A stretch of 64,000 bases of DNA from Dipteris shenzhenensis (taxonomy: Eukaryota): the NCBI GenBank assembly GCA_047967505.1, contig CM106538.1; one strand, given 5' to 3'. Below, piece after piece: positions 4,821 to 54,180 of this stretch; the stretch's first letter is position 1, and each line of letters starts with the position of its first letter. The notes under the pieces were generated by a model that was given only the letters and a program-made list of their open reading frames with translations, had not been told where the DNA came from and made no database searches. Made by a program: the position numbers and the translations under genes.

Positions 4821-5041
4821 AAGAGTCACATTACGCTTGTTCAAGAAGCGCCGACTTCACTTTCTGATGAGTGTCAGATAATGAATGTGATTTTTTTAAA
4901 CAGAATGCATGCATATCGTGTGGAGTAGCAAAGAGTCACATCACGCTTGTTCACAAGAAGCGCCGACTTCACTTTCTGATGAGTGTCAGATAATGAATGT
5001 GATCTTTTTAACAGAATGCATGCATATCGTGTGGAGTAGCA
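4821..5041 (+). repeat. ~110-bp tandem duplication containing the exon-3 acceptor and the first 27 nt of exon 3
   Basis: aagagtcaca...cagaatgcatgcatatcgtgtggagtagca at 4821-4930 and 4931-5041. Confidence 0.95.
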
Positions 5042-5072: not shown

Positions 5073-5522
5073 GTAAGATAAAGTGCTATTTTGCTATAGA
5101 CATTGAAATTTATTAAAGCTTCTTTGTGTTAAAGAAATATAGAACTGCTATGTTAACAGCGGATTATAACCTAAAGTTGCAAAAGCTTTTGCGCTTTATG
5201 CTTATTATTGTGTAAAATAAAAACTTAATTGGGCCCCTTACTGGAGTTGAAACCAAGTGTCTAGTGTCCTGGATGAAACACTTCAATTTGTGATGGGTAC
5301 ATTTCTTTACTTCAACAATCCCTTACTCTATATGATTTGCTTCAATGGTGCAAATAGTGATTACAGAGGATTTACATAGTTCACCGGACTCATGTATAAA
5401 TGTGTGCTTGTGATTGTTACCTTACTCCACTGAGCAATTTGTTACTCTTCAAAATTGTGCACATAGCTCACAGGGCAGAACATAAAAATAACGTTGGAGT
5501 ACAATTAGCCTATCTTAGTGTT

Positions 5523-5617
5523 GTGTATACCGAGATGAATCCAGGAACATTCCCAAACTCATCCTCTAAAAACACAACATAGTGCAGTTTCAATCTCATG
5601 ATAGTCACTCACAAGGT
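5523..5617 (-). mobile_element. Short retroposon 3' end (family R), copy 1
   Basis: Reverse complement is identical over ~84 nt to 14521-14604. Confidence 0.8.
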
Positions 5618-5901
5618 CTCACTATTTTGTCATGTATCACATTTCAGGTTGCCATAGAGGATTGAATAGTGTGCTTGAGATTTGTGTATGTTGTACACCC
5701 TACTATCTTCCTCAGTTGAATTTTTGCTCATCAGGCTTGAAGCTATCTTGGATTTCTCTTGAAATTTGTGTCAAGTGAAGTTGTCAGCCATAAGCAAGTC
5801 CTTTTAGGAAAGGCCTTAAAGGCCATGGGAGGAGTTAGCCACATTGGACATTGAAAGAGAGCGTTACTTTACTCAGTTGTGTGCATGAAGCAAGACACCT
5901 C

Positions 5902-6078
5902 GCGCTGATGATGTTGGTGGGGATGTCATAGTAGATAGTCCCTGCAATGTGTGATGGATTTATGGTTTCAACCTTGTGAGTGACTATCATGAAATTGAAA
6001 GTGCACATTGTGTTGTGCTTTTAGAGGATGAGTTTGGGCATGTTCTTGGATTCATCTAGATACACACACACACACATA
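5902..6078 (+). mobile_element. Family R copy 2 with (CA)n tail
   Basis: gcgctgatga...ggattcatctaga followed by tacacacacacacaca; aligns to 14463-14606. Confidence 0.8.
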
Positions 6079-6524
6079 GAGAAGGTTAGGGTGTGAGGAA
6101 ATGATGCTCAAATGAAGACATGACAAAGGCTTTCATTCATTCATCAAGTATAACAAGACAAGTGAAGTAACAAGCCTTATATAGGCTACTCACTCACACA
6201 CTAGCACCTAGTGCCTATGGGATAAGTCCCATGATGACACATGGCACTCACACAAGACTCACTCACATAGACTAGTACTAGATCACCTAGTACTTCTCAC
6301 TAACACACCACATCACCACTCTTTGGCTATGATATCTCCAACATCCCCCTTCAGAGCAAAGAGTGTGAGACCCAACACACAAATAGTAGACTGATTCCCC
6401 CTCCACCGCAATACTGCAAAGAGCAAGTCCAACTATCCAACACCTCCTGTGTGATAGTGACTTCTCAGTAAACTTGTAACCAGCAAGGGCAAACCATCAC
6501 TCGTCATCCCCCCTTACTTTGAAC

Positions 6525-7790
6525 TGTTAGAAATGACCCAACAGAGGGTACGCACAGCGGAAGACTGATAGTAATGCCCAGGAGCGCGGAAGACTGATAG
6601 TAATGCCCAGGAGCTCACATAGTGTTTGTGTGGGGTGTGGAATCACAAACTTCTTAACTTATGTGCATAGATGTGCAAGCCAGTAAATAGACAATGCTCA
6701 GGGACAAATATAGAAGCAACTCTTTATATTTCCGTCCGTCCATTCTACTAGATGCCAAGCACTTTTAGATCTCTGAGCCCCATGCTCCACCTCGAGCATA
6801 TGTAGACTCTCTGTCTAGATCCCTTCCACCTTACTGTCCGGAAGCCAGCCTAGGTGGGCAGCACCTCTAGCTTAGTCTGCAGCTTGTTCTGGGTCACCTT
6901 CACCTCCTGAATGTAGGCCCAAGGTAGGTCCTGCTGCTGCTCCTATCTGCTGGTTGAGGGCTGCTCCAAGTGATGATGAATGAGGGCATGGAAGCCCTCC
7001 TTTTATAGGGCTCAAGGCCCCCTTGATCGGACCGACCAGCCAGCCTCATCCTGGCCAACCAGACTGGCCGACCTGTCTGCTTGCTGGCCGACCTGGTTGG
7101 CTGGTCCAACCAGCCCTATATAAGGGCCTTTGGCAGCCCCTTTTGGACTGCTGCCTTTGCCCATTCCTGTGCCTATTGCAGGCCTGTTTGCAGGCCTTAT
7201 GCCTGCCCATAGACCCCCGCCATGCAGTCGTACTGCAGCCGTACAGGTCTGCGCCCTGCTGCGGACCTGCTGCAGGCAATACCCTTGTGCACAAGCCCCC
7301 CCAAACAGGTCGCCATTTTGCACCTCCAATTGCAGGTCCATGGACTGCCCTTTGCCTTGACAGCTGCCCACATGGCAGCTCATGTGCTGCCCATGTGGCA
7401 GCCCCAATATTTCCAGGTCGCCCAATGCCAACACGTCGATGATGATGCTCTAGTGACTCCCGGGTCGTAGTCCTCTAAAACTTTTTGATGTCGAAATCTT
7501 TTCCTAGCTTTTCATCCAGTGGCTCTTACTCCAGTAGGTCCGGTTCCGCTTCCGCACACCGTCCTGGTACACAGGTCCATCTTTGGTAGCACCTCCTGGC
7601 ACCACCATCTTTAGTCACGTTCCTGCCTTTGAAATCGAGCAGTCCAGCCGTCACGATCTTCTAGTTGTCCCCCTCATAATGAGTGAACAACCTGGAGTTT
7701 TCCAGGCACCATGCTCTGAGGGTCTGTTTCAACCCGTCCTTCCTTTGGTAAGGTCTGCAACCAATGAACATTTCCAGATAACCTGGACCA
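6525..7790 (-). mobile_element. Probable solo LTR nested in element A
   Basis: Starts TGTTAG; gcacagcggaagac motif typical of Copia LTR 3' ends; TATA (cctataaaag on -) near 7003; candidate TSD TGAAC at 6520-6524 and 7791-7795; internal 29-bp tandem repeat 6557-6614; right end uncertain. Confidence 0.5.
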
Positions 7791-7989
7791 TGAACTCTCG
7801 TTGAGTTCTCAAGCAGGTATTCTTCTGGCTTCAGTACTCTTTGTCCAGCACCTTCTAACAATCTTCGTTTGAGATTTTAAGAAGCACCAATACTTCCCCT
7901 TCTGCCTTCGAAGAAGGCCCATTCCTTCCAATCTTGTATCACCTGAGACAAATGAAGAGCAGAGTCTCTCCACAGCATGCTATAAAGGC

Positions 7990-9268
7990 TCAAATGCAGA
8001 ATATCAAGTACATACCTGTGTGTTTCCTCTGAAAGCAAACCTTGCACCTCATCGAGGCACCTACCAAAAGCATGTGTAATTCTGTACTGTCCCCTTTTGA
8101 AGTACAACATCCATTTGACCATGAGACCCCAGGGCCCTCCATGGAATCCACCCTCGTGTCAGTGTCGACAGCCACACACCTGGAAGGTACCAAGGGCTCC
8201 ATGCTGTCTTTCACCTTCACAAAGGCATCTGACTCCTCGTCGATCCACATCTCTATGTCAGACATCCTCACTGTGATTTCTTGGTCAACATATTTGACCT
8301 CAGTAACACTCGGTGATGTCACCAAGAACAACTCTTCGATTACCACATTTGCTTTGGCCTCTTCCTTTGAATTTGTGTCGGACTCCTTCCTTTTGTTTTT
8401 CCGATCCGCCTTTTTCTTTCTGTAGTCCTTTACAAAATGTCCTGGCGTATCACAGCAGAAGCACTTCTTCTTCTGCTTCCTCTTAGAAGTCTCCTTGTCA
8501 TCAGAGTCGTCTTTCTTGGACTTGCCACCGTTAGCGTAATCCTCCGCCAGCAGCGCATTGTGGTCTTTGCCGTCGTTGTAGAGCTTCTCTCGAGCTTCCT
8601 TCTGTAGCAGTAATGGACCCAACTCCTCCAACCTCAGAGGTTTGGTCCTTTGTTCTGCTGTCACGGTCGTAACAAAGCTCTTGAAACTCCGAGGTAGCCT
8701 CCTCAGTACCATCAAGGCCAAATGACATGAGTCTGTCTTTTTGACCAACTGTTGCCAGTTGATCCCTCACCACCTTGACCTTCGTCAAGTGGCTATGTAC
8801 CATATCTCCTTCTTCCATATCAAGATTGTAGAGTTGATGTTGAAGAAGCAAAATCCGGGAGGTGTTGTCCGTCTCGTATAGATCCTTCAGAGTGACCCAC
8901 GCCTCTATTGACGTCTTGGCCATGTGGATATTTGGAAGCACAGAGTCTGCTTCGAGCTCCTCTTTGTTTACTGCCATGAGTATCTTTCCTTGCCTATCCA
9001 CCATGTCCTCCGGCTTCGTCTCCACTCCCGTTGTCAGCTTCCACAACTTCCGAGCCACTAAATGGCTCCGGATTTTCACCTTCCAGATCGGGTAGTTGGT
9101 CCCGTCTAGTTTCCGAGACTTTCCGAAGTTAGGGATAGTGAATGAGAGAAAACTGGGGGAGGAGGAAGGGAGAGCATGGGCTACTCCAAAATGCACACGC
9201 AGGTCTGAAATGTGCAAGGCGGTAGCTGTAGGTGCTCCAAATGCGAAAGCAGGTCTGAAAACTTGCAA
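7990..9268 (-). pseudogene. Copia gag of element A (KLDGTNYPIW, UBN2-type core, CCHC-knuckle remnant), frameshifted near 8748
   Basis: ORFs 8531-9268 and 7990-8748; CFCCDTPGHFVKDY knuckle. Confidence 0.85.
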
Positions 9269-9918
9269 GGCGGCTCAGCAAGGCAGCTCCGAAGTGCTGC
9301 AGTAGGTCACCACAGTGAAAAATGGCTGATGTAGATATGCTGGAAGCTAGAAGCAGTCCCAAAAATGCTTCTGGTGTAGGCGGTTCTGCAGCAGCAACCC
9401 TAGGGCCACTCGAAAATGCAAGCAACAGCTCCAAAACTGGTCGAAAATGCCTCCAAAAGGCCCGAAAGTCTGCAACCAATGCGTGTAGATGGACAGCTCT
9501 GTTGCAGCGGCCTGGAAACCCTAAAAATGGGAATGGAAATGCTCCGAATCAGCACGTATACAAGCGCCACTTGAAGGAGATGCCAACCAGCAGCACGTGT
9601 GCACACGCCTCTTGAAAACAAGCTGACCAGCAAGGCTGTGGAGAGGTTAGACGGGCAGAAATGGATGCGAAAAGGGCTGCAAGAAGAGGTGGCTATGGAG
9701 ATTCTAGGTGGGTAGGTAGGAGTGCAAAGGGCTGCAAGGGAAGGAGGCAAAATGAAGAAGAGATGAGGCGGCTGCAGAAGGAAAGAGGCTGAACTGAGGC
9801 GGCTGCAAGAGGGAAAAGAGCTTGAGCAGAGTTAGGGTTATGGTTAGGGCTGAGATGATGACGTGGCAGGGCAGCTATGGCAGGGCTAACCTGCTCTGAT
9901 ACCATGTTAGAAACATGG

Positions 9919-9952
<34 letters not shown>

Positions 9953-10210
9953 TAGGGTGTGAGGAAATGATGCTCAAATGAAGACATGACAAAGGCTTTC
10001 ATTCATTCATCAAGTATAACAAGGCAAGTGAAGTACAAGCCTTATATAGGCTACTTACTCACACACTAGCACCTAGTGCATATGGGATAAGTCCCATGAT
10101 GACACGTGGCACTCACACAAGACTCGCTCATGTAGACTAGTACTAGATCACGTAGTACTTCACACTAACACATGACATCATCACACTCTTTGGCTATGAT
10201 ATCTCCAACA

Positions 10211-13200
10211 ATAGGAGCATCTTGTTTGCTGTCTTTTAGAGTGTCAAGGAGCCAATGGGGGACCTTTTTGGGCTCCTGTATTTCAGCTCTCTCTTGGTCA
10301 AGATCCCTGTGCACAATATCCTGATCAAGCTAAGGCATATCAGGCTATAGATCATGCTGAATTTCACATGCCACATGTGGCTGCAAATGACCAATAGAAG
10401 GATGAGCAACCTCAGATGTGACATTATCATGAGAGTCTGACAAAAACAATGGCATCAAGCTGTCAAAGAGATCTAGGACATCAACAATGGGCTGTTTTTG
10501 ACAGTCCAGCAAAGGCATAGAGGAAGATTCATTGAACACAACATCCCTACTGACAAAAACCTTGCCCGTGCGGGGCTGGTAGAGCTTGTAGCCCTTGCTC
10601 TTTGAGCTATACCCAATAAAAATGCATTTGACAGCTTTATCATCCAACTTTGTGCGTGTTTGAGAAGGCACATGTGCATATGCCAATCATCCAAAAGTCC
10701 TCATGTAAGAAATCCCGGGCTTATGACCTTTCCAAGCCTCATAAGGTGTGATGGTCTTCAATGTCCTTGTGGACATGCGCTCAAAATGTAATTTGCACAC
10801 ATAACAGCATCCAACCACAACTTGTTGGGCAAGTGCTTGCCTTTCAACATACACCTAGCCATCTCCATGACTGATCTATTCTTTGTCTCAGCCACAGGAT
10901 TCCTGTTGAGGAGTGTAAGACACAAGGCATTGATGATGTATGCCACGTGAGGCCAAAAAATCAGCAAATTCCTTTGACATATATCACCTCCCTTGTCTGT
11001 ATTAATGTGGGTAATTTTGAGCCCTCTTTTACTTCTCTACCAAGGCAATGAAATGTCTAAAGCATGCAAAAACTAAGATTTAGATTTCAAGGCAAAAATC
11101 CAAGTATATCTGGTGAAGTCATCAATGAATGTGACAAAATAACAAAATTCCCCAAGAGTTGCAACCTGCATGGGTCCACAAACATCACTATGAATCAAAT
11201 ACAGCTTGCAAGATGCACCAACTCTCTCATCCGTGGGAAATGCAGAACGGACCATGGTGCATCTTACCAAGCAAGCAAGCTTCACAGACATGCTTTGAAG
11301 GCATATGCATTTTAGGAAGATCAACAACCATACCATGCTTATGTAACTTCACCAGAGCCCCAAAGTTGAGGTGTCCAAACCTCTCATGCTACAAATGAGT
11401 ATCTGCCATGGTAAAAGTATCAACAGCATAGGCATCTGTATTTGCAAGCCTAGCATTATCCAAGCATCTGTCATAGGCATCAAGTCTGTAGAGCCCTCTA
11501 GTCAATGTGCCAGTCATTACCTTGGTAAAGGCATGTGTAGCATCATAGACTGCACACCGAACAGAATGTGATAGCCACAAGTAGCTATGGCTGAAATAGG
11601 GATGAGGTTCTTGCGTATGCTTGGAACATACATCACATTGTCTAGAGTGACTAGATCACCAGAAAGAGAAGTAATGGCAACTTGCCCAATGCGTTTCATT
11701 GTATATGATGCATTATTTGCACATGTAACTGTCCCCCCCTTGGATGCATGCTCAAGTGAGCTGAATAATTTTCGGCAGGAAGTGATGTGTTTGCTAGCAT
11801 TACTATCAAAGAACCATGCATTAGAAACATCAAAAACTGTCGTGGAGGCATCATGAACATCAGGATTATACTGACAAGTAACAAGAAAAGCCCAATGCTG
11901 GTCATGTGCAAAATTAGCTGACTTATGTCGATCATCTGGACTAGGAGAACCAGATACTGCAAGATTAGACTGTTTCTCTTCTTTTCAGATTCAATTCTCT
12001 CCTTGCATTCTGAGATATCATGCCCACGTTTCTTGCAATAGTTGCATCTCTTTTTCTTCTTCTTCTCTCTAGAAGAAGAGGCATCGTGGGAGTGACCAGC
12101 ATGTGTATGAGGGGGCTTACCAACTGAAACCTTGCCTTCGCCCTTATGCTTGATCACTAGCCATAGAAGCATTTCTATTTGCACGGCTTGTTCCTCCTGT
12201 AGTAACAGAGCAACCATTTCTATTTACACTCTCTTCAAGCTTCAAGGCCTTCAACTGCTTGCGGAGATAGGCAACCCTCGCCTCATTCCGCAAATGATAT
12301 AAAGATGCAAGCTGAAGCCTGATCCCATGCTTGATATCCATCCCACCGAATTCGCTCCTGAGTAGGAGGCAAAGTACTCGTAGTGGAAGATGCAGTTGCG
12401 CCAGAAGTAGCATTAGACCCATCACCAGATGAGCCCGAGGCAGTACCAGATGTACCAGAGGCATTACCAAAATCAACAGGTCGAGTAGGCCTGACCTCAG
12501 TGCCTGAAACAATATTCCACAGATTCTTGGCTACCAAAACATGCCCCATCATATAGGCCCACATGGGGTAATTTGTGCCATCAAGCTTGTCCTCAGCCCC
12601 AAGGATCCCAAACAAATCCTCCTTACTGCGAGCGATAGTGCTGAAATTTAAGGCAAAAGCACCAACTGACAATGCAAATGAGAGGAGGGCAACCTCTTAA
12701 AACCAAAAGGCAAATTTATGCTCAAGCTTCAAAGTTTTTTCACTGCAAATGCATGGTTGTCTCAAGGTGTACCTGCTGCAAAAGGATTCGCAAAAGGCAA
12801 CATGAGGCCTTTCCACAATGCCAATGGAGCAAAGAAAGGACTGTTTTGCAGAAATTAGAAGGAACCAATGCAATAGAGGATTACCCAATGATGTAGCCTA
12901 AAAATGCAGCAGAGAAAATGCTCCAAATGTGCCACTGATAGTCACCCTTGGAGGAGAGGTGAAATGGACAGCAAATGGCAATGAGCTGGCTGGAAATGAG
13001 AATTACAGAAAGAAAATGTGCTCCCACGAGGAGGAGAGCACTTCGAAATGAGTTGAGAAGGATCCAATGGAGAGAATCTCGCAGCGCGAGGCAAAGGGAC
13101 AGCAAATGAGAGGCAACGGGCTCAAGGAGAGGTCTTCGGATGGCAGCAGCAAGCTCGAAATGGCATCAAACACCAAGCACAAGCCTCCAAATTAAGAAAT

Positions 13201-13250
13201 TTGTTGAGAAGAAGCTTCAAATGTGACATGACCACGATCGCTCTTACCTG
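10211..13250 (-). mobile_element. Degenerate Copia B (gag, protease, GAG-pre-integrase, integrase); RT, RNase H and both LTRs not seen
   Basis: DKLDGTNYPMW gag, CNYCKKRGHDISEC knuckle, [20 protein letters not shown] integrase, KLDDKAVKCIFIGY; many frameshifts. Confidence 0.85.
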
Positions 13251-14214
13251 CACACAAGCTCAAACCAACGATCATAGAACCACAAAGAACGGCGCAGGCA
13301 TGCTCACCATCCAACCATGATGCTCATGGGTCCAGGCATCCCCCCGAGCCATAGGTTGGGTTGGGTGCACGAACATCTACATCCAACCAGTCCACAACCT
13401 CTTGGCGTCCCATACCACTAGAAGGCGTCCATAGGGCCTTAGGATTGCGCTAGGAATCCGGCCTACGCTAGAAAGCAGGTGCGTGTCCGTAACGCGATCC
13501 AGGATCCAGACTAGCAAGGAAGAGCTATCCTATTTCTAACTTGACGTTCATGAAAGCCAAGAATACTCTCAGGCTCGTGTGGTATAAAGGTTAAATTAAG
13601 TGGAGTAACTACGCGATCCTCAGCACCCAACACTTCTTTCAGTCTACTGACATGGAAGACTGGATGAATCCTTGCATGAGGAGGCAAATCTTGTTCATAT
13701 GCATGAACTTGGCCAATTCTTCGGATAACCTTGAATGGACCATAGTATCTGGGGGATAACTCCCTTACGTGTCCAGTACTGAGAACAAGTATACCATCGT
13801 TCCAATATAAAACTCTCTAGGTGAACTATGTCTATTAGCATAGAATCTGTCCCTGTCTTGGGCACTTCTAATAGACTCCTTGGCAAACTGCAACATCTCT
13901 TGCATATCTTGCAAGAATGTTTTTGTAGCATCATTCTTGATTCCCTTTAATCCGACCATTATTGGAGATTTAGGTTGAAGCCCATAGATAAGCATAACCA
14001 GTACTAGAATGCTTTGCTCTGTTATAAGCAAATTCAACCATGGGTAAGTAGTCTTCCCATGGTGATGCCTCTTGGAAACATATGCTCGAAGCATATCCTC
14101 TAGAAGTTGGTTCACAACTTTCGGCTGACCATCAGACTACCTTTGATGTTTTGGTGTAGTACCTACTTCCAAGTTTCTACTACCTACTACCTTTGATCAT
14201 GATGTTTGGTGTAG

Positions 14215-14610
14215 ACTAAAATGAAAATGTTTAGACTTCACAAGCAGTTGTAGCTTGAATGAAGAGATTTTGGACTACCTTTTGATTAGCCTTCTCCTTT
14301 AGTGCTAGCCTTCATCATGGCTGAGTCTGCCCTTCATCTCCGGAGTGCCGACAGAAACTTAGTACGAAGACTTTGTATGAATGGATGCTCAAGTATGTGT
14401 GGGTGTGTGGATTTGTATGTGTGAGAGCATATTTTTATACTATGGTCTACACCCACTGTTGGGCGCTGATGACGTCAGTGGGGATGTCATAGTAGCTAGT
14501 CCCTGCTATGCATGATGGAACCTTGTGAGTGACTATCATGAGATTGAAACTGCACTATGTTGTGTTTTTAGAGGATGAGTTTGGGAATGTTCCTGGATTC
14601 ATCTAGGTAT
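14215..14610 (+). mobile_element. Family R copy 3, a non-LTR retroposon fragment with a 16-bp TSD
   Basis: ATGATGTTTGGTGTAG at 14199-14214 and 14611-14626. Confidence 0.8.
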
Positions 14611-17600
14611 ATGATGTTTGGTGTAGTATTGATCTATCATTGACACTATGTATCAGAATCCAAATTCCAAATGACTCTGGTCTCCGGAGAAAGTTTGTAG
14701 GTCTATGTCAATGTAATGTGTACAATGTATATCTTTCTAAATGTTTTTGAGTAAAATTAGGGTCACGTATGTTTCAACCCTAGGGGCTGAACCATACTCC
14801 AATCATACTTCCATACTCGTATGACGTATGTGTATGGTAATGTATGGAAAAAATCTATGCTTCCCACTTATTACGAGGAATGTCCAAAGGTTGTAGTAAC
14901 CCTGCACTTCTAAGTCGTTCTGCTTTGGTCACTTGACAAGTATGGCAACCTACAAAATAGTCATGAACAAATTCTCTCATCTTAGGCCAAAAACTATGTT
15001 TCACGAGAGACAGAGTCTTGTATACTCTAGGATGTCCCGCACTAGGTGCATCATGACACTCCCGAAGACTCAGATCCGACACATCTGGTACATAAATTTT
15101 TTCATTTCAAAACAGTAAGCCATTCCGAATCATCCACACTGACCTCCCGTCGCTTGAACCATAGGTGGCACAATCCCTGAGTCCTGATCAATCATATCGG
15201 TACTATCCTGGACCTTCTGCCAATAATGATTGAAATGACTATCAGTTGCACAAAGCCCTCTCAAGGATTGAAATAGGTAAGAGGATATCTCAGTAAATGA
15301 CAAAGCATTCACCATCTTAATCCGACTTAGGGCATCAGTAACACTGTTGAAAGAGCCTTTCCTATACTGAATCTCAAAATCAATATCCTGCATCAACTCA
15401 GCCCATCGAGCCTTCTTGCCCCTCAAATCATCCCCTCAATATACATATCGGATTGATCGATGATTAGTCAACACGACAAATCTAGAACCATACAGGTAAT
15501 GCCTCCGAACCTTGAGAGCATAAACAACTGTATAAAGTTCCTTTTCCATGGTAGGCCAACGATATTGAGTATTATCGAGCTTTTCTCTCTCAAAAGCTAC
15601 AGGTTGGTCCTCTTGGAATAATGCTACCCCGATGGCATAGTCACTTGCATCGGCCTCCAATACATAAGGCTAGGTAGGATTGAGCAATGCTAGAACATGT
15701 GCACTCTTGATACCAATTTTCAAAGTATCGAAAGCCTTGTTCAACTCTTCATTCCAAGTAATAGGTTGTGTAGGCCTACGGCCACGACCCTTCAATACGT
15801 TGGTTAAGGGGGCCTTGATTTTAGAATAATCACGAATTGATTTTCTTAAAAAGACAGTAAATCCTAGGAAAGAACGAAATTGTTTCACTCTCTGAGGTAT
15901 AGGCCAAGTCAAAATCTTTTGAATATGGTCTTCATCAATGCTAACACCCTCACGAGTAATTTGTAGGATCGATTGAGAGAGAGAGAGAGTACAGATAGCA
16001 AAACGAAGCACAAGCCTTAGCCGTCACGTTAAACTTGGATTAGATAATCAAAAACAAAGGTAAAGCCTGTCGAAAGACTTCGAACTTGGTATGAGGAAGT
16101 GCCTTTGTAAACATATCTGCTATGTTGTCCTCTGTGGGAAGATAGGACAACTCTATGTCTCCTGCTGACAACCGCTCCCGAACATAATGATAGTGAACTT
16201 CAATATGCTTTGTACGTGCATGAAACACTGGGTTACGCGCAATGGCCAAAGCACTCTGGCTGTCAGTGTAGACAATAGTGGAGGATGTCTGGCGAATACC
16301 AAGATCTGTAAGTAACTGTCAAAGCCAAACACACTCTACTGTAGTGGTGAAAGCTGCCCTGTACTCAGCCTCACAGCTAGACGTGGCAACTGTTGGTTGC
16401 TTCTTGCTGAGCCAAGAGATACATGAATTGCCAAGCAAAAAACAATTGCCAGTATGTGACACTCTGGTGTCAGAACATCCTGCCCAGTCACTATCCGTGT
16501 AAGCATGCATTGGTAAGTGAACCCTGATCACCATAGAAGAGGGCTAAATCCTGAGTGCCTCTGAGATATTTGAAGACTCTCTTCACTGCTTGCCAATGCT
16601 GTGAACTGGGCATGTGCATGAATCTTCTGAGCTGAGATATTGCATACTGCAAGTCAGGTCTGGTGTGACATAAATAAATAAGGCATCCAACAACTTGCTG
16701 ATAAAGAGTGATATCGCATGGTGGGCTTCCATCATGAGCTGATAATTTGAAGCTAGGGTCCACTGGAGTAGAGATTGGCTTGCAATCCTTAAACTGAAAA
16801 TGATCAAGGAGCTGTCCAATATACTTGGACCGAGACATCATGATACCCCCCTCAACATGAGCAAACTGAATGCCCAAATAATAATGGAGCCGTCCCATGT
16901 CTGACATGTCAAAAATCTGCTGCAAATCAGCCTTGAAAGCTGCAATTTGTTGAGTATCTGGGCCCGTGATGAGCATATCATCCACATATAAAATCAGCAC
17001 TAAAAAATCAGATCCTCTCCCACGGACATAAAGAGTGGGTTCTGTGGGACTATTCTGAAAACCAAGGGATAGTAAGTGTGCATGAATTTTGGCATACCAT
17101 GCCTTGGGTGCCTGCTTCAAACCATAAAGGGCTTTTCTAAGACGGCATACCTTATTTTCAGAATTAACAACCTCAAAGCCAGGAGGTTGTGTGACATAGA
17201 CACTCTCCTGCAGATCCCCATGAAGAAAATCAGTTTTGATGTCAAGCTGGTGCACTTGCCAATGATGATGGACTGCAATGGCAATGACACATCTAATGGT
17301 AGTAATCCTGGATGTGGGAGCGAATGTATCCTCAATGTCAATGCCTTGTTGTTGGGCATACCCTTTTGCAACAAGACGGGCTTTGTATCGATCTATGCTG
17401 CCATCAGATTTCCCTTTTAATTTGTAGACCCACCGCGTTCCAATGGCATGCTTGCCGGGAGGGAGATCTACTAATTCCCATGTGTCATTTTTGGCAATAG
17501 ATTGTAACTGAGCTCTCATTGCATCCATCCACTCTTTGCTGTCAAAAGCATCTTTATGGCATAGAGGCTCTTCATTGCAAGCTGTAGGAAGGAGTGCAAA

Positions 17601-20491
17601 CTCAAGAAAGTGACCATGTTGGCAAAAGGCTGATCTTGTTTGCTGTCCCTCAATGTATCAAGAAGCCATCTGGGAACTTGCCTTTGCTGTCTATTGACAG
17701 CTCTTTCTTCAATGACTGCATCATGAATAGTGGGATCATTTTGTGCCGGAAGAGGAACTTGCAAATCACTTGCAAATCAGCATGAGGTTGTGGCTGATTA
17801 TTGCTTAGTGGAGGGCCTGCAGGAGGCTCATGTTGCTGGTCAAAATCCTCTTCTGATGATGGCAGAGGTAACCAAGATTCAAAGGCATCAAACATGTCAA
17901 CATCTGGCTTTGCCTTGCAGTCCACAAGAGGAGAAGCTGAATGTTAGCAAAGATTACATCTCTACTGACAATAATCTTCCCAGTATTTGGTTGATATAAC
18001 CGATACCCTCTGCTCTCCTGGCTGTAACCAATAAATATGCATTTGATTGTCTTGTCATCAAGCTTATGTCTCAGTTGAGATGGTACATGAACATATGCAA
18101 GAGACCCAAAAACTCTTATGTGTGAAAGTGAAGGCTTCTTGCCTTTCCATGCTTCATAAGGTGTAACAGTCTTCAATGCCCGTGTAGGTGATCTATTCAG
18201 CACATAGTTGGCACACATTACTGCATCAAGCCAAAATTTATTGGGCAAAGACTTGGCCTCAAGCATGCATCTGGCCATCTCCATTGTGGACCTGTTTTTC
18301 CTTTCAGAAACAGGATTCTGCTGAGGAGTGTAAGGAGTAGTGCATGAGTGAATAATGCCGTGTGAAGATAGAAATGCATCAAACTCCTTTGACATATACT
18401 CTCCCCCCCTGTCTGTGTTGAGGGTGACACGCTTGCATCCTGATTCATTCTCAACCATATTCAGCCATCTCTAAAAGCATAAGAAAACTTCAGATTTGGC
18501 TTTTAAAGGATATACCCAGCAATATCTTGTGAAATCATCAATGAGAGTCATGAAATACTTATATCCCCCAATGGCATTTGTCCTCATTGGGCCACAGACA
18601 TCACTGTGTACTAGCTGCAATTTCCTTGTGAGAGTTTTGGGCAATTTTTTTGAAAAGGAAATCGATGCATCTTACCCAAAAGACAACCCTCACACACATG
18701 TTTGGAAACTGTGTGAGTCTGAGGTACATCATTTGCCATCTGCTGTGAATGTATCTTTGCAAGAGCTCTATAATTGAGATGGCCCATTCTCTCATGCCAA
18801 AGATGAGTTTGAGCAAGCTGTGAATCTGAAATTGCAAATGCTTCAATAGAAAGTGCAGTTGAGTGATGATCAAGGTGATAAAGCCCCTTTTGCAAAGTGC
18901 TAGTGAGAACTATGGCATTGTGATCACGAAGATCATAAACTAGGCATCTATAGCCATCAAAAATAACTCTGAAACCTGAAGTGGCAATTGCTGAAATTGA
19001 AATCAAGTTGACTTCAATTCTAGGCACAAAAAGAACATTTGTCAGAGTAACAGGATGGCTTGAAATGGATGTGGGCTGCACATCTCCAATTCCTTTAACA
19101 GCATATGAAGCATTATTAGCACACGTGACAGTCCCCCCTCGAGGTGCATCAGCTAGAATGCATCAGCTTTGGAGGGATCAAATGAGCAATGGACAGCCCA
19201 TGCCCAATCATCCTGAAGAGCATGTGCATGTGAAGCATCTTCTGGCTCATGGGATTCAATAGCATGTGAGGCAGTAATTGTCAATCCTGCTTTCTTTTTC
19301 TCCGAAGCAATGCGCTTTCTGCATTCTGAAATGTCATGTCCAGGCTTGCGACAATAGTTGCATCTTTTCTTCTTTGACTTATCTGCTGTATTTTTAGATG
19401 CATGGGAGGAATTGCAGCTGCTGTGTGCAGATTTTGGCTTGCCCATAGGCTTGGAAGCCTTGCCTCTTCATGTCAGCTGTGAAGCAAATGCATGATCAGG
19501 AATAATGGCTTGTCTATTAGCTCTACTTTGCTCTTCCTGCAAAAGCAAAGTCACTAGCTGATCAAAAGAATAGTGGTCTGGATTACCCATGGCCACTAAT
19601 CGAAGGGTTGTAGCAAACCCTTGGTATGTATCTGGCAGTCCATTCAATGTGGTACTGACAAGCTGTGAATTTGGCACCACCGCATCAATGTTGGCAAGCT
19701 GTTCCATGAGGTCCTTGACCTTTGTCAGGTATGCATCCATAGACTCACCTTCATTCATACTGACTTCTTGTAATTGCCTTCTCAAATATGCAACACGAGC
19801 TTCATTGCAAATCTAATAGAGATATCCCAAGCATCCTTTGCTGTCCTACAAGACCGGATGTGTGGAATAATGATTCTCTTGCATGATAAAGCAATGCATG
19901 AATGTGCATTTGCATCTCTTGCATCCCATCTTGACTGTTCTTGAGTTGGAAGAGCAGCAACAGGTGTGCTAGAGGAAGAGGCATCAGGAGTAGTACCCCC
20001 TGCAGAAGGACCAGCAGTAGAGGCAACCACTGTAGCATTGGCTGGCCTCAGACCAGCCCCAGAAACAATATTCCACAAATGCTTTGCAACAAGAATATGT
20101 TTCATGAGATAAGACCACATCGGATAGTTGGTGCCATCCAACTTATCATCTTCACGAAGAACTCCAAGTAAATCTTGATTGTTCCCAGCCGTAGCAAATG
20201 TGATACCTTGAAAAAGACTTGAAAACCCAAAAGCCTCAAGGCTATCACTGCAAAAAGCTGGTTGTCTAAAAATGACAGCAAATATCTGCAATTTTTCAAC
20301 CCAAATCAAAGGGCAAATGCGAATCTGATCCAAATGTGACTGTGGCAGGCAATGTTCATTGCAAAAACAGCAAATATGGCAAAAACCCCAAATTTAATGA
20401 GGGCAAATAGGCCAAAAAGAGGGCAAATGTAGAAAAGCCCCAAATTTTCCTGAGATTTTGCAAACGTGAGACAATGTATTGTAATCTGAGC

Positions 20492-20555
20492 CAATGTCCT
20501 GCAAAAGTGACTCAATGTCCTGCAAAAGTGACTCAATGTCCTGCAATCTGACCCA
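20492..20555. repeat. 21-bp tandem repeat in the Copia D leader
   Basis: caatgtcctgcaaaagtgact, about 3 copies. Confidence 0.85.
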
Positions 20556-20692
20556 ATGTACTGCAAACAAACAAGAAATTGCAAACCAAATCCCAAAGAA
20601 AATAGCCTCAAGGCTTGCAACTGCAAAATTAGGAGTGCTGTCCACAAATTGTCTGCAAAAGTGCACCAAATCCCGGAGCAAGTATAATGCAA

Positions 20693-21242
20693 GTACAACG
20701 TACAGTGCGGGTATTGAATTGATGTACGGAATCATACGGATATCAGCACGAAATCCAATGTACGGTTGTACGGATGCATGTACTATGTAGTACAGTGTAC
20801 GGAAATACAGTACGGACATGTATGTTGATTGTACGGAATACATGTACGGAGAGCAGTACAGTACCTTGTACGAACAGATACGTAGTGTAGGTACGGATCT
20901 GTACAACTGCTCAAGTACGTAGCTGTATGGTGTACCAAATGCAGGTACCAAACTGTACGGAGTACGACTATACGGTGTGCGATGTATGGCGATGCATATT
21001 CGAATATGTACGGTTATACGATGAAGCAAGTACGACTGTACGATGATGTAGGTACGGAGCAGGCTGTGAGCACGGAAGGTGCACGACGACAGTACGGAGC
21101 AGGTACGGGATGTTCCGTACGGCGAGTGTCCAATGTACGGACGTCTAATGTAGATTGTACGACGCAAGTGAGTACGGAAGCCACGGGTGGAGAACGTACG
21201 GATTCTGAGGCAGGATCTGTACGGACGTCCGTACAGTCGTAC
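20693..21242. repeat. GTAC/GTACGG motif-dense array in the Copia D 5' leader
   Basis: About 35 GTAC in ~550 bp by manual count, about 19 of them as GTACGG. Confidence 0.95.
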
Positions 21243-21906
21243 GGACTATACGGATAAAGGTATAGGGAGCATATGCAAATCCGGGGGTAGAAGACGAGTC
21301 GAACGTGGTTCTGATACCACTGTAGGATCGATTGAGAGAGAGAGAGAGTATAGATAGCAAAACGAAGAACAAGCCTTACCGTCACGTTAAACTTGGATTA
21401 GATAATAAAAAACAAAGGAGTACAAGGTACAAGTACCTAGACCTAGGACTAAGTGTCCTAGGTGTCACATAGGACTAAGTGTCCTATGTGGCCTAAAAGA
21501 CACTAACACTATAAGTGTCTTTATTTATGCCTACAAGGCACATACCATGGCCTATAGGGCATCACTAGAACCACCAGAGAATGGCCTACATAATCTTGTG
21601 TCCTAAGTAAATGATATGTTTCATGAAGAAATCACATTTACTAACCTTAGCATACAGCTTATTCTGTCTTAATAGAATTAAGACAATCCTAAGATGAGCA
21701 ATATGATCCTCTTGAGTCTTGCTGTAAACTGAGATATCATCCAAGAACACAACATCAAACTTGCTCAAGAACTCAGAAGAAGTCATTCATTATCTGTTGG
21801 AAAGTCACGGGAGCATTGGTCAATCCAAAAGGTAATACAAGAAACTCGTAATGACCATTCCTAGTCCAAAAGGTTGTCCTTTCAATATGTTTTACATAAA
21901 TACGAA

Positions 21907-22150
21907 TCTGATGGTTGCCTGTCCATAAGTCAATCTTAGTGAAATGCCTCGCTCTAGCTTATCTGTCTATTAAGTCATTAGCACGAGGGAGAGGATACTT
22001 ATTCTTAACCGTGATTTTATTCAATCTAAGTCTGATGGTTGTTTGTCTGTAAGTCAATCTTAGTGAAATGCCTCGCTCTAGCTAATCTGTCTATTAAGTC
22101 ATTAGCACGAGGGAGAGGATACTTATTCTTAACCGTGATTTTATTCAATC
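21907..22150. repeat. 120-bp tandem duplication (4-bp spacer) inside the Gypsy C RT
   Basis: 21907-22026 and 22031-22150; the 124-bp period shifts the frame. Confidence 0.9.
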
Positions 22151-23969
22151 ATTTATAATCCGCACACATTCTTCAAGTTCCATCCTTCTTCTTCCTCAGA
22201 AGAACGGGAGCACCCTAGGGTGATCTGCTTGGTCGTATATACCCCAACTTCAAGTATTCTTGAAGTTGCTGAGCTAATTCGTCCTCCTCTAACGGGCTCA
22301 TCCTATAAGGTGGTATACTTATAGGCTGAGAACCAGGGACTAAATCTATGGGATGGTCTACTGCCCGTCTGGAGGCAAGCCTACCGGCAGTTGTTCGGGT
22401 ACTACTTCACTAAAATCATTCAACAACTTCTTTAATTCAATATGTTTAACGACACTTAATCATTTGCATCAGACGCAGATACAACAAATGAAGAAAATGG
22501 AATTAAAACACATTGAAATACATCACACAAAGTTGTTTGTAATATATTTCGAACTTCAATCGCATTTACAAGAGGTCCCTCGGAGGGATGTATTCATCAC
22601 ACTGTATCAAAAGTTGGGTGACCCCGTACAAAAGAGAAAGGGTATGAGCTTCCCAATCAAATTGGACATGATGTGTTTTAAACCATTCAATGCCCAACAA
22701 TAAGTCTACATGATCCAAGTGCAAAACATAGCACTCCAAAATATCATCATAGGCTTGAATCCGGACGGAAAGTCGATCCACCTTGCGATCCCTAAACTTC
22801 TTTGCTTTTGGAAGCTGCTCCTCGTAGGTGTGATCACTAGGCGTTGTAATTAGTTGTAGCTTCTGCACAAGTTTGTGGTTAACAAAGTTGTGAGAACTAC
22901 TTGGGTAAAAAAGAATGTGAATCCGGGTCCCCTGGATCTCACCATAAGCCTGGTAGAGATCATGGGAACAGTGAATTAGTAAAAGAACAATCACTAGAAT
23001 GAGGCTTGGTGAGAACATTGACACATATACTTGTCAAAGTAGTCAGAGCGACTGTCTTTGACTTCGTTGGTTGTCCTTTGATCTTTGGTGTAGGTCCTTG
23101 TGAGGCTTCGGGCCTCTTCGGACAATCAACCGGAGTATGCCCTTGCTCCTCACAAATGAAGCATTGCCCTTCCTTTTGAAGCCGAAGCGAACGGAGGAAG
23201 TGCTCCTTGCTATTCTTGGTGGATTTATAATTCTTCTGAGAAGGAAGATTAGAAGATCTCACATCTCGAGTGCTAGTAGCTGCATTGAAGAACTTTCTCT
23301 TGTTCTTCCCCTAGGTTTCGGGTGTAGTCAACTTCTTGGTGGAGGCCATCGTATCATCATAAATGCGCGCTAAATGTATGGCCTCCTTCAGGGTTGAGCT
23401 CTTATTGTTCTTTACCTGCAACCTATAGGAATCGAGCAAGCGGGCCACAAAGAAACCCAAAAGGGTCACATGATCCATCTTTGTAGCGTGGGTTTGAAGG
23501 TCACGGAATTTTTGGATATAGGTCTCAAAAGGGAGGCTCTGTTTGGTCATATCCAAGGCCTTAAACTTGGCCACGATGTCATAATCATCTTCCTTTTTTA
23601 GAAACTCAGTTCTAAAGGCGTCTTTGAAGTCTGCCCAGGTGGATGGCTGAGGCCACAATTCCTTCCACCAGAGTAGAGCCTTCTCGGCTAGATATCCAAC
23701 CGCTAACTGGATGCGCTTGTCTTGTGGGTAGGGGTGAAAATTGAAGTGGACCTGCCATTTATGCAGCCAGGTATCCACAACCTCTTTCTTGCGATCCTTT
23801 TTCTCCCCCGAGAATGTCCCGTGTATGTATGCGAATCTAATGATATCTGCTCTTGATGTCAATATGCTGAAGATTGTATCACTTCCCAGCCTGTGTTGCT
23901 CTTGATATCTGCTCTGTGTTGCTCTGTGTTGCTCTTGATGTCAATATGCTGAAGATTTTCATAGCTCTC

Positions 23970-24520
23970 TTTGAGGCATCAAAAGCTTCACCTCCTTATG
24001 AAACCAGGGAATAATACCAAGCACCACATCATGAGGCTTCTAGGGTGAGATGAAAAAGTCCTCCTGGTCAACATAATCCTGCAATGATAGGAGTGACAAG
24101 AACAAAATTTCCATGGAACATTTGATCCGCATCCAAGGCTCCTTGGTTTTGATTCCACTTGCAAGGCTAACTCTTCGAAAATGAAATTATTCATAGCTCT
24201 TGGGTCAAAAAGGATCAACACGTTATGATCATGCAATTCGCCCCACAGAGGGGCAAACTTCTCTGGCCTCTTGGCCACTTTCCCCAAAACATCGGGGATA
24301 CCTCCTGCCATAGCCTTGGGCGGTTTTTGAGATCTTTTTTGCTCACTCAGTCCCAAAGAATTTTCGAGGCATTGGGCAGCCACATGTCCTTTTTTTCCAC
24401 ATCAAAAACATCTCCCTTCCTTCCAAAAGTCTCAATCTGCTTAGCGTAAAGCCCCTTATAGGGCCTTTGGTTTTGGTCTTGATTGTGGTTTTCCCCTTGG
24501 CTTGTGAGGTTGAAACCCAT
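23970..24520 (-). mobile_element. Second Gypsy gag-knuckle/protease fragment
   Basis: CGKKGHVAAQC knuckle remnant and LWGELHDHNVLILFDPRAMNNFI protease-like motif. Confidence 0.7.
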
Positions 24521-24739
24521 TCTTTTTTTTTGGTCAAGAAAATTACTTCATTAAGTATGAATGAAAACCGTGAGAGCAAGCTCAAATGCGGGAGTACATC
24601 ATGCAATGCACGAGGAAAAAACAGCTCAAAGTGAGCTAGTATTTGGACTAACACAGTACACTCTCTGATGGCCATTTGAGCGAGCATGCAGGGATCCTCC
24701 AGAGCAACCACTGCCAGGAGAGTTACTTTTTTCAGAGTT

Positions 24740-25295
24740 TGGAGGGGATCTCCTTTCTTCTCTGAGTTTCTTCAGGGTTGAGATGGCATTTTCAGCCTCT
24801 GCCTTGGTTCTTTATTGGCCATAGTCTGGGAAGGGTGAACCTGGATACCCTCCATCGCCTCTGTACACCTGGCTCTCCAAATATGCCAAGTTGCAATGCT
24901 AGCCAAAATCTCCCAAGACGTGTCTACTGAGGCATGAGCAGCTCTGAAAGGAGTGAGGGGAACATCCTGGAGGGAACAAGACTCCATTGAATGTCGCCGT
25001 ACAATGAAAGCTAGAAGGGGGATCTGGATCATGTCTCTCCACAAACACACGTGGGCCAGTAAGAGATAACCAAGCGAGTGAACCCCAGGTCATATAGAAA
25101 GGTGCTGTATGAAAGATGCTGAAAATCCTAGCAACACCTTTCCAGATCGTCCTCGCCTGTATGCACTCCCCAAGGCAATGTTGTACTGACTCAATTGCCA
25201 TGTGACAACGAGGACAAGTAGGGTCAGCCCCGAACCTGGATCTACACAGGTTCACTGCAATCCCTCCATGAATAGAAAGCCAAAATAAAAAGGGT
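24740..25295 (-). mobile_element. L1-clade LINE ORF2 3' fragment (zf-RVT-like)
   Basis: FLFWLSIHGGIAVN...CPRCHMAIESVQHCLGECIQARTIW and WHIWRARC motifs. Confidence 0.8.
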
Positions 25296-25299
25296 GATC

Positions 25300-26550
25300 T
25301 TTCTATTCCTGAGGGATTTCTAGAGCTTACGCCAAAAGTTCTTCCGCACAACTGCGGAAATCTGAAAACTATCCCAATGTGGCGCTCTGGAGGGCCTCCG
25401 ATCTCTATTGCTGAGCTGAAACCTCCGGGCATTTCTAACTGTACAGTGAAAGAAGGGAAAGCTCTTCTCTCGGTGCCCCTCATCAATCCAACCTTTTCAA
25501 ATTGAAGTGGCTGGAAATCCTTCCTTTTTGATATATACTTGGTCTTTTTTAGGACATCTTCCTTCTCCTTTTGAAACGAAGATGAATCCTTCACATTCAT
25601 CATAAATGCAACTGAAGCTGAATGCATGAGGCCTGAATCTCTGCATGAGGCATTGTATTTAAAAAGGCTTAACATTTGGCGGCAATCTTGCTCGATACTT
25701 TTGAAGCTTCCGAAGCTGTGCCTTAGCTGAAATCTTTTTGAACGGGGTTACCTGTGAGTATGCATCCCAAAATCTTTGATTGAAAACCCTGCGTCCTCCC
25801 TCACTTCATGTGAAGGCCATCCCATGCAATATGGCCTTAATTTTACAAATTGGTTTGGGAGAAACTGTTGATAGAAATACTTTTTAAACTTCTTCCACGA
25901 CTTGAGAGCAGGCCCATCTACCAGCTTGGCAGTCCCCCAAGTGATAGGTGTACCTATAAGGTGGGGACTCACCATCCGGGGTTTGGATGATTCTTGATAA
26001 ATTTTCCGTATCTGTCAAACTGACATATAAGCTGCGTAGCCTTCTCTGTCTGCCATATGCCGCATCATAAGTTACAAAACGGCCAGTTTTACCTCTCCCC
26101 TTGAATTCCTTGGCCCTGGAGGGCTTCTTACTCTGCCTCGATGCCTACTGCTTGAAGAGTTGGAGGAAGAGGATGAGGTTGAACTTGAACCGTTGCTGGA
26201 AGTCATTCTGCCTCCCGTGCTTGGGGCTTGAAGATCTAGTTCTCGGTATCATACTTCTCCCTCTATGCTGGGATTTATGGCTTCTCCTGGATGATCTTGT
26301 TGAAGAAGTTGGTGAGGGGCTAGAAGAATGCTTTCTTGGGGGAAATACCTGTTTGGTAGATTTCTCTGTAGGAAGAGATGCTGAAATTGTGGGTTCTTTT
26401 TGAAGAATTCATACTTCATGAAGATCATCATTTGGTACCTCATGCCCTCTCTTGCTGGGCGTTTTGAACGACCTGTTCTGAATTTTGAATGGGAATAGAT
26501 ACCGAGGAAGCAAGGGAAGGGTAAGTGCTTTCTCCCAAGCACCTTCCTTC
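25300..26550 (-). mobile_element. Degenerate Gypsy gag fragment
   Basis: KSWKKFKKYFYQQFLP retrotransposon-gag motif preceded by a Ser/Arg/Lys-rich region. Confidence 0.6.
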
Positions 26551-26726
26551 TCGAGAAGGTGGGGTAAGGCGCTATGCGCTTTCATGCTTCGCCCCTACCT
26601 TGCTCAACGGTAGCAATCAATCAGTACGATACAAGTGCTTGGTCAGTGCCATGATCGGTAAATCTCCATGTGCCTTATTGCGATCAACAACATTAAAGAG
26701 GTAGGAAAGCAGTAAAGAAGCAAATG

Positions 26727-26834
26727 ACTGTTGGGCACAGATGATGTCAGTGGGAATGTCATAGTAGCTAGTCCCTGCTATTGTATTTTTAGAGGATGAG
26801 TGAGGGCATGTTCCTGGATTCATCTAGATATATA
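26727..26834 (+). mobile_element. Family R copy 4 (internally deleted)
   Basis: actgttgggc...gtccctgcta joined to ttgtattttt...ggattcatctagatata. Confidence 0.75.
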
Positions 26835-27587
26835 TCTTCTCCTTGCTTTGCTTGCACTCATGCTTCAAATGACAATAATTGCTAGGTGGTTAGATTTTCT
26901 TGTGGAGAAGGACAAATGCCTCATGCTGTCAAAATCATCCGCTAATAGGTCAGGTAATAGAAAGTTTTTCAGAAGGTGTGCATGTAGTAAGCATGGCCAT
27001 GATACAGTTCCGGTTTAGAATAACAATACCACCTTTCCTTATTAGGGTGAAGAATGTAAGCTCTCATTGTGCATCTTTTGAAGTTGCTCTTGACTAGACT
27101 CTGAAACAAATGATCATGTAAGTCCTGCTTGTCTCCCCTTTTTCTCGGATTCTTGACTTTCCTTTGAGTGAACGCAGTTGGGAAATGTACCCTGGTTTTG
27201 TTTGGTGGAGAGACTGTTTGGGGAATTGACATGATGTATAAAGCGCTGAAGCACTTTCTGTAAACATGCACAGCATCTTGTCAATGCAACAAAGCATGTT
27301 CACAGCAGGTCTTAGAAGCAAGCTAGAGGCATGTCATATGTTTTAGAAGCCCTGCTACCTTCTCTTCATAACAGCCCTCCATTCCTATGCTTGGTAACTG
27401 ATGACAACATAAGCACAGTTTTGCTTACCAAGTGTTTTTTATTTTTCCTCTCTCTTTGCTTTGTTTCATGTCCCCCCCCACCGAGTCTCTTCCCCCTTCT
27501 TTTCTTGTTCCTTGCAGAAACAAATCTAGTCTGTAAGATTGGATATGTTCCATTCTTATGAAGGTATATATTTTGGTTGATTGGCAG

Positions 27588-54095: not shown

Positions 54096-54180
54096 CCCTT
54101 CCTCAAAATGGAGCAATTTTGGCAGTACTACCATAGTGCCCACGTCGATCGCCGAATCCACCCCCTATACATGCCAATGG

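What the first reader, a model, noticed from the sequence alone, without database searches (positions are those of the whole stretch)
20693..21242. Array of ~35 GTAC (SBP/SPL-binding core) motifs in a Copia 5' leader, inside a host intron
Seen: about 35 GTAC occur in ~550 bp (about 2 expected at uniform base composition), about 19 as GTACGG (CCGTAC on the element strand). Spacers are irregular, so this is not a simple tandem repeat. The array lies just downstream of the PBS, three more GTAC are in the 5' LTR (~21420-21437), and it is CpG-rich while the coding region of the element looks CpG-poor. Known: GTAC/CCGTAC is the core bound by SBP-domain factors, including copper regulators SPL7 and CRR1 and the miR156-targeted SPLs. 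Inferred: the element may recruit SPL factors for copper- or age-dependent activation or anti-silencing, and the array could act as a mobile enhancer on the host gene. An RNA role in dimerisation or packaging through palindromes is an alternative.
Basis: partly seen in the sequence, partly recalled or inferred. Interest (0 to 1): 0.75.

Follow-up and report, generated by a model that had tools for sequence, protein, structure and literature searches.

The report
SPL-site array in fern retrotransposon leader
A broken jumping gene inside a fern intron carries 35 copies of a short DNA word in 550 bases, 19 of them exact matches to the site that SPL developmental regulators bind in flowering plants, and this cluster likely served as the element's own methylation-sensitive switch rather than as an enhancer of the host gene.

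Summary
The array is real: 35 GTAC in 550 bp (shuffle mean 10.6, maximum 19 of 2000), 19 as GTACGG on one strand against 2 inverted, CpG o/e 1.57 against 0.20 in gag-pol. It fills the PBS-proximal half of the non-coding leader of a dead Copia, nested in a Gypsy RT inside a 22.5-kb intron of a fern PUB62/63-like gene. Conservation is confined to an 8-base word, (T/A)GTACGGA, which is the class B SPL motif; copper-type SPL7 sites are a minority. Spacers are mostly unrelated, with traces of short duplications. A perfect 20-nt palindrome 66 nt from the PBS is the only part that aligns in contigs of two other organisms; one sister contig keeps both flanks but holds 532 unalignable letters in place of 586. 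The array folds no better than motif-preserving shuffles. Motifs decay by C-to-T about like the flank. Best reading (0.5): an element-level SPL-type binding array, the palindrome possibly also a dimerisation signal; host enhancer role unlikely. No binding, methylation, expression or family-wide data could be obtained. No paper on SPL-site arrays in retrotransposons turned up in six searches. New variant of a known kind.

The parts
20693..21255 (-). Array of 35 GTAC / 36 sites within one mismatch of GTACGG (TCCGTACA on the element strand), PBS-proximal half of the 5' leader
21217..21236 (.). Perfect 20-nt palindrome (inverted pair of motifs around a CGGACGTCCG core), 66 nt from the PBS; longest perfect palindrome in the window; only array part that aligns in other organisms' contigs
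21303..21320 (-). Primer binding site (TGGTATCAGA..., tRNA-Met type by recalled knowledge)
21321..21590 (-). 5' LTR, 270 bp, TG..CA, with three GTAC at 21420-21436; target-site copy TAATC follows
20193..20692 (-). Gag-proximal half of the leader: U-rich, TTTGCA/TTGCAG words, 21-bp tandem repeat at 20459-20568, CpG o/e 0.15
16061..20192 (-). Broken gag-PR-IN-RT-RH frame (11 in-frame stops and at least 4 frame changes against P0015; start codon not intact)
15962..16060 (-). Remnant of the 3' LTR (99 bp; 3 substitutions and 1 indel against the 5' LTR); PPT and the rest of the LTR deleted; target-site copy TAATT precedes
5073..27587 (+). Host intron 3 (22.5 kb) of a PUB62/63-like U-box gene, holding a stack of nested elements; the Copia interrupts a Gypsy RT frame (15670-15961 and 21591 onward)

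Best explanation
The array is likely a cis-regulatory module of the retrotransposon itself: about 36 same-strand copies of the class B SBP/SPL word GTACGG in the non-coding 5' leader, predicted to recruit host SPL factors to control the element's transcription. Shown: the motif, its 8-base width, its position, its CpG retention and its identity with the published SPL motif. Inferred: copies arose by short local duplications (hence one orientation), selection on transposing copies kept the word while spacers drifted, SPL binding needs the CpG unmethylated so the host can shut the module by methylation, and the 20-nt palindrome at the PBS end may double as an RNA dimerisation signal. In this dead copy the module is decaying and would be inert; whether bound SPLs activated or repressed is open.
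For: Information is confined to positions -2..+6 around GTAC and is at background from +7 on. The extension beyond the core (GG, then A; T/A before) is the class B SPL motif (PMC11429892 passages; PMC13458263); CCGTAC(A/G) 15 and TNCGTAC 19 matches against 0.04-0.05 expected per 576 bp. 25 of 48 CpG sit in GTACG; o/e 1.57 against 0.20 in the same element's coding region and 0.33-0.43 in four other Copia leaders of the window, which hold 0 CCGTAC. Spacers share no more 10-mers than motif-preserving shuffles (9 vs 8.8), 12-mers slightly more (4 vs 0.83; 8 of 500). 14 of 17 one-mismatch sites are C-to-T type, so the ancestral array was more perfect. Two contigs of organism A match the palindrome end at 90% with different flanks, and the 60 loose letters on the array side hold 3 GTAC. 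A contig of organism B keeps both flanks and a 532-letter unalignable segment in place of 586. Relatives' Gag starts right after the leader, and translations of the array have no relatives. Ferns have SPL genes (10 in Ceratopteris, PMC10796333).
Against: No binding, methylation, chromatin or expression data. Fern SPL specificity is extrapolated from angiosperms. Orientation 19:2 (p 0.0002) is not needed by a DNA-binding factor and equally fits duplication without function or an RNA-level motif. The 532 letters of the organism B contig were not seen, so motif retention there is unknown; the organism A evidence is 2 short contigs picked for matching a GTAC-rich stretch, with 60 letters seen, and their Copia origin is not shown. 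No helical periodicity. Matching a 6-8-base word to some known factor after the fact is easy. Spacer CpG o/e is also raised (0.91), so part of the CpG excess is regional.
Confidence: 0.5

Rival explanations
1. A functionless, decayed expansion of a 7-13-base unit in a fast-evolving leader; the match to the SPL word is chance.
For: One orientation (19:2), four shared 12-mers above the null, segment not alignable in a sister contig while flanks are, C-to-T load in motifs 14 of 144 sites, similar to a rough 10 of about 137 in the flank.
Against: No tandem period by TRF or Rayleigh test; conservation stops sharply at the motif edge; a neutral CpG-bearing unit should have eroded toward the family's 0.20 o/e; palindrome end is kept in two other organisms.
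Confidence: 0.2
2. The array acts as RNA: repeated single-stranded UCCGUAC words and the palindrome form the packaging and dimerisation signal read by Gag.
For: Position just downstream of the PBS; strict orientation; perfect 20-nt palindrome (hairpin -11.5, self-duplex -38.7 kcal/mol; 3 of 500 motif-preserving shuffles reach 20 nt) with a self-complementary loop; Ty1 dimerises through 5'UTR palindromes (PMC6844567); leader plus PBS folds at z -4.2 against 20 dinucleotide shuffles.
Against: With motifs held in place the array folds no better than spacer shuffles (z -0.1; 46 of 100); without the PBS end z is -1.7; one palindrome would suffice for dimerisation; Ty1 Gag showed no strong base preference in the passage seen; no Rfam family.
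Confidence: 0.17
3. The words are bound by another protein: a different host factor or an element-supplied anti-silencing protein of the VANC kind.
For: CpG retention in a methylation-depleted element; VANDAL/VANC precedent (recalled, no call).
Against: No extra ORF in what remains of the element (the 3' end is deleted); recalled NAC and MSA patterns match 7 and 0 times against 21 for CCGTAC.
Confidence: 0.08
4. The host has co-opted this copy as an intronic SPL enhancer of the PUB62/63-like gene.
For: It lies in an intron of an apparently intact gene; TE-borne binding sites are common in plants (PMC8647832).
Against: 20.6 kb from the start codon, inside a stack of nested elements; motifs carry about the same C-to-T load as the flank; methylation of the CpG abolishes SBP binding in tomato.
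Confidence: 0.05

Closest known systems
Sirevirus repeated motifs (RM; PMC2829016, PMC4728375)
   Same: Copia element, high-copy short motif, CpG-rich island, fast sequence turnover; the 20-nt palindrome has the CGG..CCG core, and its central CGGACGTCCG is the core of the Usier RM.
   Different: RMs are palindromic in every copy and lie in long LTRs upstream of the TATA box or before env; here copies are one-strand half-sites in the 5' leader, the LTR is 270 bp, and the word matches a named factor family.
Leader-borne regulatory repeats of Drosophila elements (copia ULR enhancer; ZAM and Tirant 5'UTR repeats; gypsy Su(Hw) sites)
   Same: Short LTR plus a leader module of repeated sites for host proteins (copia ULR: title in a reference list, and ChIP passages; ZAM/Tirant passages; gypsy recalled).
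   Different: Animal hosts and factors; binding shown there, not here; ZAM/Tirant repeats are long tandem units.
Class B SPL binding site GTACGG (Arabidopsis DAP-seq, PMC11429892; tomato SPL-CNR, PMC13458263)
   Same: Identical core word, 19 perfect copies plus 2 inverted; GTACGA, also bound by CNR, 5 copies.
   Different: Known targets hold a few sites (8 GTAC in the FSD1 peak); this holds 35 in 550 bp, in a retrotransposon of a fern where specificity has not been checked here.
Ty1 PAL1/PAL2 and retroviral dimer initiation palindromes (PMC6844567)
   Same: Self-complementary sequence in the 5'UTR near the PBS.
   Different: Here 20 nt, downstream of the PBS, and built from two of the array's words; dimerisation untested.

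Membership tests
Ty1/Copia LTR retrotransposon | Domain order gag-PR-IN-RT-RH with RVT_2 | tested here: met
   Pfam; colinear tblastn with P0015, P0024, P0028, P0035
Ty1/Copia LTR retrotransposon | TG..CA LTRs, PBS, 5-bp target-site duplication | tested here: met
   5' LTR 21321-21590, PBS 21303-21320, TSD TAATT/TAATC; 3' LTR partly deleted
Sirevirus RM array | Every copy palindromic with CGG-CCG core | tested here: not met
   One 20-nt and one 8-nt palindrome of this kind; the other copies are one-strand words
Sirevirus RM array | Located in the LTR upstream of the promoter or before env | tested here: not met
   Array is downstream of the PBS; LTR holds no GTACGG
Sirevirus RM array | Cluster forms a CpG island | tested here: inconclusive
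   CpG o/e 1.57 but G+C 48%
Sirevirus RM array | Multiple PPTs and env-like gene in the linker | not testable with these tools
   The linker is deleted in this copy
Class B SPL cis-element | Core GTACGG / CCGTAC(A/G) / TNCGTACAA | tested here: met
   21 CCGTAC, 15 CCGTAC(A/G), 3 full TNCGTACAA; motifs
Class B SPL cis-element | Bound by an SBP domain; motif CpG unmethylated | not testable with these tools
   No binding or methylation data; requirement from PMC13458263
SPL7/CRR1 copper-response element | Clustered GTAC cores with GTACTRC or (A/T)GTAC(A/T) preference | tested here: inconclusive
   GTACTRC 2, (A/T)GTAC(A/T) 5, GTACT 11, against 21 CCGTAC
Tandem repeat / minisatellite | Head-to-tail unit with a period | tested here: not met
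   TRF at score 30; no period; spacers unshared at 10 nt
Dimer initiation palindrome (Ty1 PAL type) | Self-complementary sequence in the 5'UTR | tested here: met
   21217-21236
Dimer initiation palindrome (Ty1 PAL type) | Needed for RNA dimer formation | not testable with these tools
   Needs an in vitro assay

The most novel reading that the evidence does not exclude
A fern Copia lineage has wired itself into the miR156/SPL developmental clock: a leader packed with methylation-sensitive class B SPL sites, kept as a word while spacers turn over between species, times transposition to adult or spore-forming tissue and holds its CpGs unmethylated in an arms race with the host, while the terminal inverted pair doubles as the RNA dimerisation signal.
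Probability: 0.2. Interest if true: 0.8.

Novelty: new variant of a known kind. Interest (0 to 1): 0.52.

Why it matters
Known plant retrotransposon switches mostly answer to stress (recalled: ONSEN heat elements, Tnt1 and Tto1 boxes). An array of SPL sites would tie a retrotransposon to the plant age and reproductive pathway, give a concrete model for how methylation shuts an element (the motif's CpG is the base whose methylation blocks SBP domains), and offer a natural high-density SPL reporter for ferns. If the family is abundant, it would also have spread many SPL sites through a large fern genome.

Tried and rejected
No genome is held for the window, so sister copies of this species could not be compared. 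Run search listed 4 runs at 0.05 of the words, no RNA holder listed; array bins 20672-21191 had no cover in 4 of 4 runs, and the narrower lay did not recover the organism B contig (0 laid in X1, X2, X3; 2 in X4), so its 532 letters stayed unseen. Metagenome pattern scan: 118 loci, none similar to the element by blastn/tblastx; no Copia protein hit in 127 loci. Viral and prokaryote collections: nothing relevant (the 9 hits are bacterial). The 283-codon open frame over the array is rejected as a gene: no Pfam, 0 hits among 1.84 billion representatives, 0 of 3 candidates for the + strand frame, out-of-frame indels in a sister contig's leader, relatives' Gag starts after the leader. Whole-array RNA structure rejected by the motif-preserving control. 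Rfam: one chance hit, E 0.76. The closest Copia in the window (10200-13220) lacks its PBS-proximal leader, so it is no comparator. Lineage (REXdb type) not assigned: no references on hand; best RT identities 60-67% are unnamed or Adiantum proteins. Earlier scan notes: nothing relevant in 4 look-ups.

Full report
Observation. The count stands: 35 GTAC between 20693 and 21242, 25 as GTACG and 19 as GTACGG on the + strand, 2 inverted. Dinucleotide-preserving shuffles of these 550 bases give 10.6 +/- 2.5 GTAC (maximum 19 of 2000) and 1.4 GTACGG/CCGTAC (maximum 7); no other 550-base stretch of the window exceeds 7 GTAC, and only 6 GTACGG/CCGTAC lie outside the array. CpG o/e is 1.57 in the array, 0.20 in gag and pol, 0.15 in the gag-proximal leader. 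The three LTR GTAC are at 21420, 21427, 21433, without the GG extension.

Setting. The element is a Copia on the - strand: 5' LTR 21321-21590, PBS 21303-21320, a 1.1-kb leader, gag-PR-IN-RT-RH, and a 99-bp remnant of the 3' LTR at 15962-16060; the PPT region is deleted; TSD TAATT/TAATC. It is dead: 11 in-frame stops and at least 4 frame changes in five alignments to P0015. The LTR remnant differs by 3 substitutions and 1 indel in 99 columns. It interrupts a Gypsy RT frame, inside intron 3 (5073-27587) of a PUB62/63-like gene whose named relatives among 10 hits are Adiantum and Ceratopteris proteins. The host is therefore a fern by homology; the species is unknown. The leader is non-coding: relatives' Gag begins just before the DKLDGTNYP block, and the two open frames over the array have no relatives.

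Anatomy. Around GTAC, information is strong at +4, +5, +6 (G, G, A; p about 0.001), weak at -1, -2 and -6, and at background from +7 to +13. 36 + strand sites lie within one mismatch of GTACGG (0.76 expected); 14 of the 17 imperfect ones are C-to-T type on one strand or the other. With motifs held fixed and spacers shuffled, shared 10-mers are as expected (9 vs 8.8; 264 of 500), shared 12-mers slightly in excess (4 vs 0.83; 8 of 500), there is no period (23.5% of 1000 random sets reach the best Rayleigh value) and folding energy is ordinary (z -0.1; 46 of 100). Against plain dinucleotide shuffles the leader with the PBS end folds at z -4.2 (20 shuffles) and without it at -1.7. A perfect 20-nt palindrome at 21217-21236 is the longest in the window; 3 of 500 motif-preserving shuffles reach that length. 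Four other Copia leaders in the window have 0-2 GTAC, no CCGTAC and CpG o/e 0.33-0.43; one of them is cut before its PBS-proximal part.

Relatives. No genome was held. Four runs (3 samples, 2 coded organisms) shared 0.05 of the words. Laid at 80% likeness, they cover the gag-proximal leader and part of the LTR but none of the bins 20672-21191. One 2,260-nt contig of organism B (same sample in X2 and X3) aligns at 20235-20634 and 21221-21332 with 532 other letters in place of 586; those letters were not shown, and the second lay did not recover the contig. Two contigs of organism A (run X4, 109,610 records) match only 21215-21254 and 21218-21255, 4 differences each, with unlike flanks; the 30 loose letters on the array side hold 2 and 1 GTAC, one as GTACGG. 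So the palindrome end is the only part that aligns, the segment persists in length, and the rest turns over faster than its flanks. That motifs persist while spacers change is suggested by 60 letters, not shown. In the 40 of 100 difference rows displayed, 10 positions in 20150-20470 have T/A here and C/G in the contigs, about 7% of C/G sites, close to the 9.7% in the motifs; the comparison is rough because it includes species divergence, and the LTR pair shows only 1 transition in 99 columns.

Meaning of the word. DAP-seq of 14 Arabidopsis SPLs splits them into class A (SPL7, 2, 10, 11; GTAC) and class B (SPL1, 12, 8, 6, 3, 5, 4, 14, 15, 9; GTACGG) (PMC11429892, passages). Tomato SPL-CNR binds GTACGG, is blocked by methylation of its CpG, and acts as a repressor; rice and maize SBP proteins share the sensitivity (PMC13458263, abstract and passages). 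CCGTAC(A/G) and TNCGTACAA are the older consensus forms (PMC6508781, PMC10796333, passages); the array has 15 and 3 matches, 19 for TNCGTAC. SPL7 favours GTACTRC and AGTACA/TGTACT (PMC9516184, passages), matched 2 and 5 times. The array thus points to class B rather than copper SPLs, without excluding SPL7.

Mechanism. Most likely (0.5) the array was the element's own SPL-type control module, placed in the leader because the LTR is short, built by small duplications and kept by selection on transposing copies, with methylation as the host's off-switch; the palindrome may also seed RNA dimers as Ty1's 5'UTR palindromes do (PMC6844567, passages). Shown are motif, position, width, CpG retention and partial cross-species persistence; binding, sign of effect, tissue and dimerisation are inferred. 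Rivals: functionless expansion (0.2), RNA packaging array (0.17), another binding protein (0.08), host enhancer (0.05).

Comparison and novelty. Sirevirus RMs are the nearest plant case: high-copy, CpG-rich, fast-evolving motifs in Copia elements, and the palindrome's centre equals the Usier RM core (PMC2829016 section 9 and passages; PMC4728375 abstract and section 16); this array fails their palindrome and position criteria. Leader modules are known in Drosophila copia, ZAM and Tirant (PMC2443393 and PMC5408687 passages; the copia ULR enhancer paper seen as a title only). TE-borne binding sites are widespread in wheat (PMC8647832 passages); an SBP motif appears once for Pogo elements in PMC8725346 (passage); PMC13547354 has no SPL/SBP/GTAC word; PMC5445492 (passages) concerns a different PBS-replacing hairpin. 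Six searches aimed at SPL sites or motif arrays in retrotransposons (listings only, open-access library, 7 to 20 rows seen each except 1) showed no report of such an array; subscription papers and supplements were not seen. ONSEN, Tnt1/Tto1, gypsy Su(Hw) and VANDAL/VANC are recalled, not from calls.

Verdict. Real and unusual in density, with an exact match to a methylation-sensitive plant factor motif, but one dead copy and thin family evidence. New variant of a known kind; interest 0.52.

Noticed in passing
window 4825-5040: A tandem duplication of about 110 bp copies the acceptor and first 12 codons of exon 3 of the PUB62/63-like gene just upstream of the real exon (tblastn hit at 4895-4930); a possible decoy or alternative acceptor.
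   Followed up: no
window 20193-20692: Gag-proximal leader half is rich in TTTGCA/TTGCAG on the element strand (9 and 8 copies; not above shuffle maxima) with a 21-bp tandem repeat; several look like 3' splice acceptors. It aligns at about 90% to contigs of organisms A and B.
   Followed up: partly
window 5073-27587: The intron is a stack of elements: a small Copia with 90-92% LTRs (6058-10187), a truncated Copia of the same lineage as the one studied (10200-13220), Gypsy pieces (13500-24400) and a zf-RVT-bearing fragment (24899-25747).
   Followed up: partly
L065 2800-3574 (marine metagenome contig): Unrelated contig with 68 GTAC in 3.6 kb, 35 within 550 bp, purine-pyrimidine alternating, no strand-biased GTACGG and no Copia similarity; L085 and L084 look similar.
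   Followed up: partly
window 49088-49475: Degenerate 26-bp unit array (CCATCCA-type), CpG o/e about 0.8, the next most motif-dense stretch of the window.
   Followed up: no
window 37087-43005 and 53447-58484: A younger Copia with 98% LTRs and long open frames; and a 98% LTR pair (54200/56746) nested inside an 89-92% pair. Their leaders hold no CCGTAC.
   Followed up: partly
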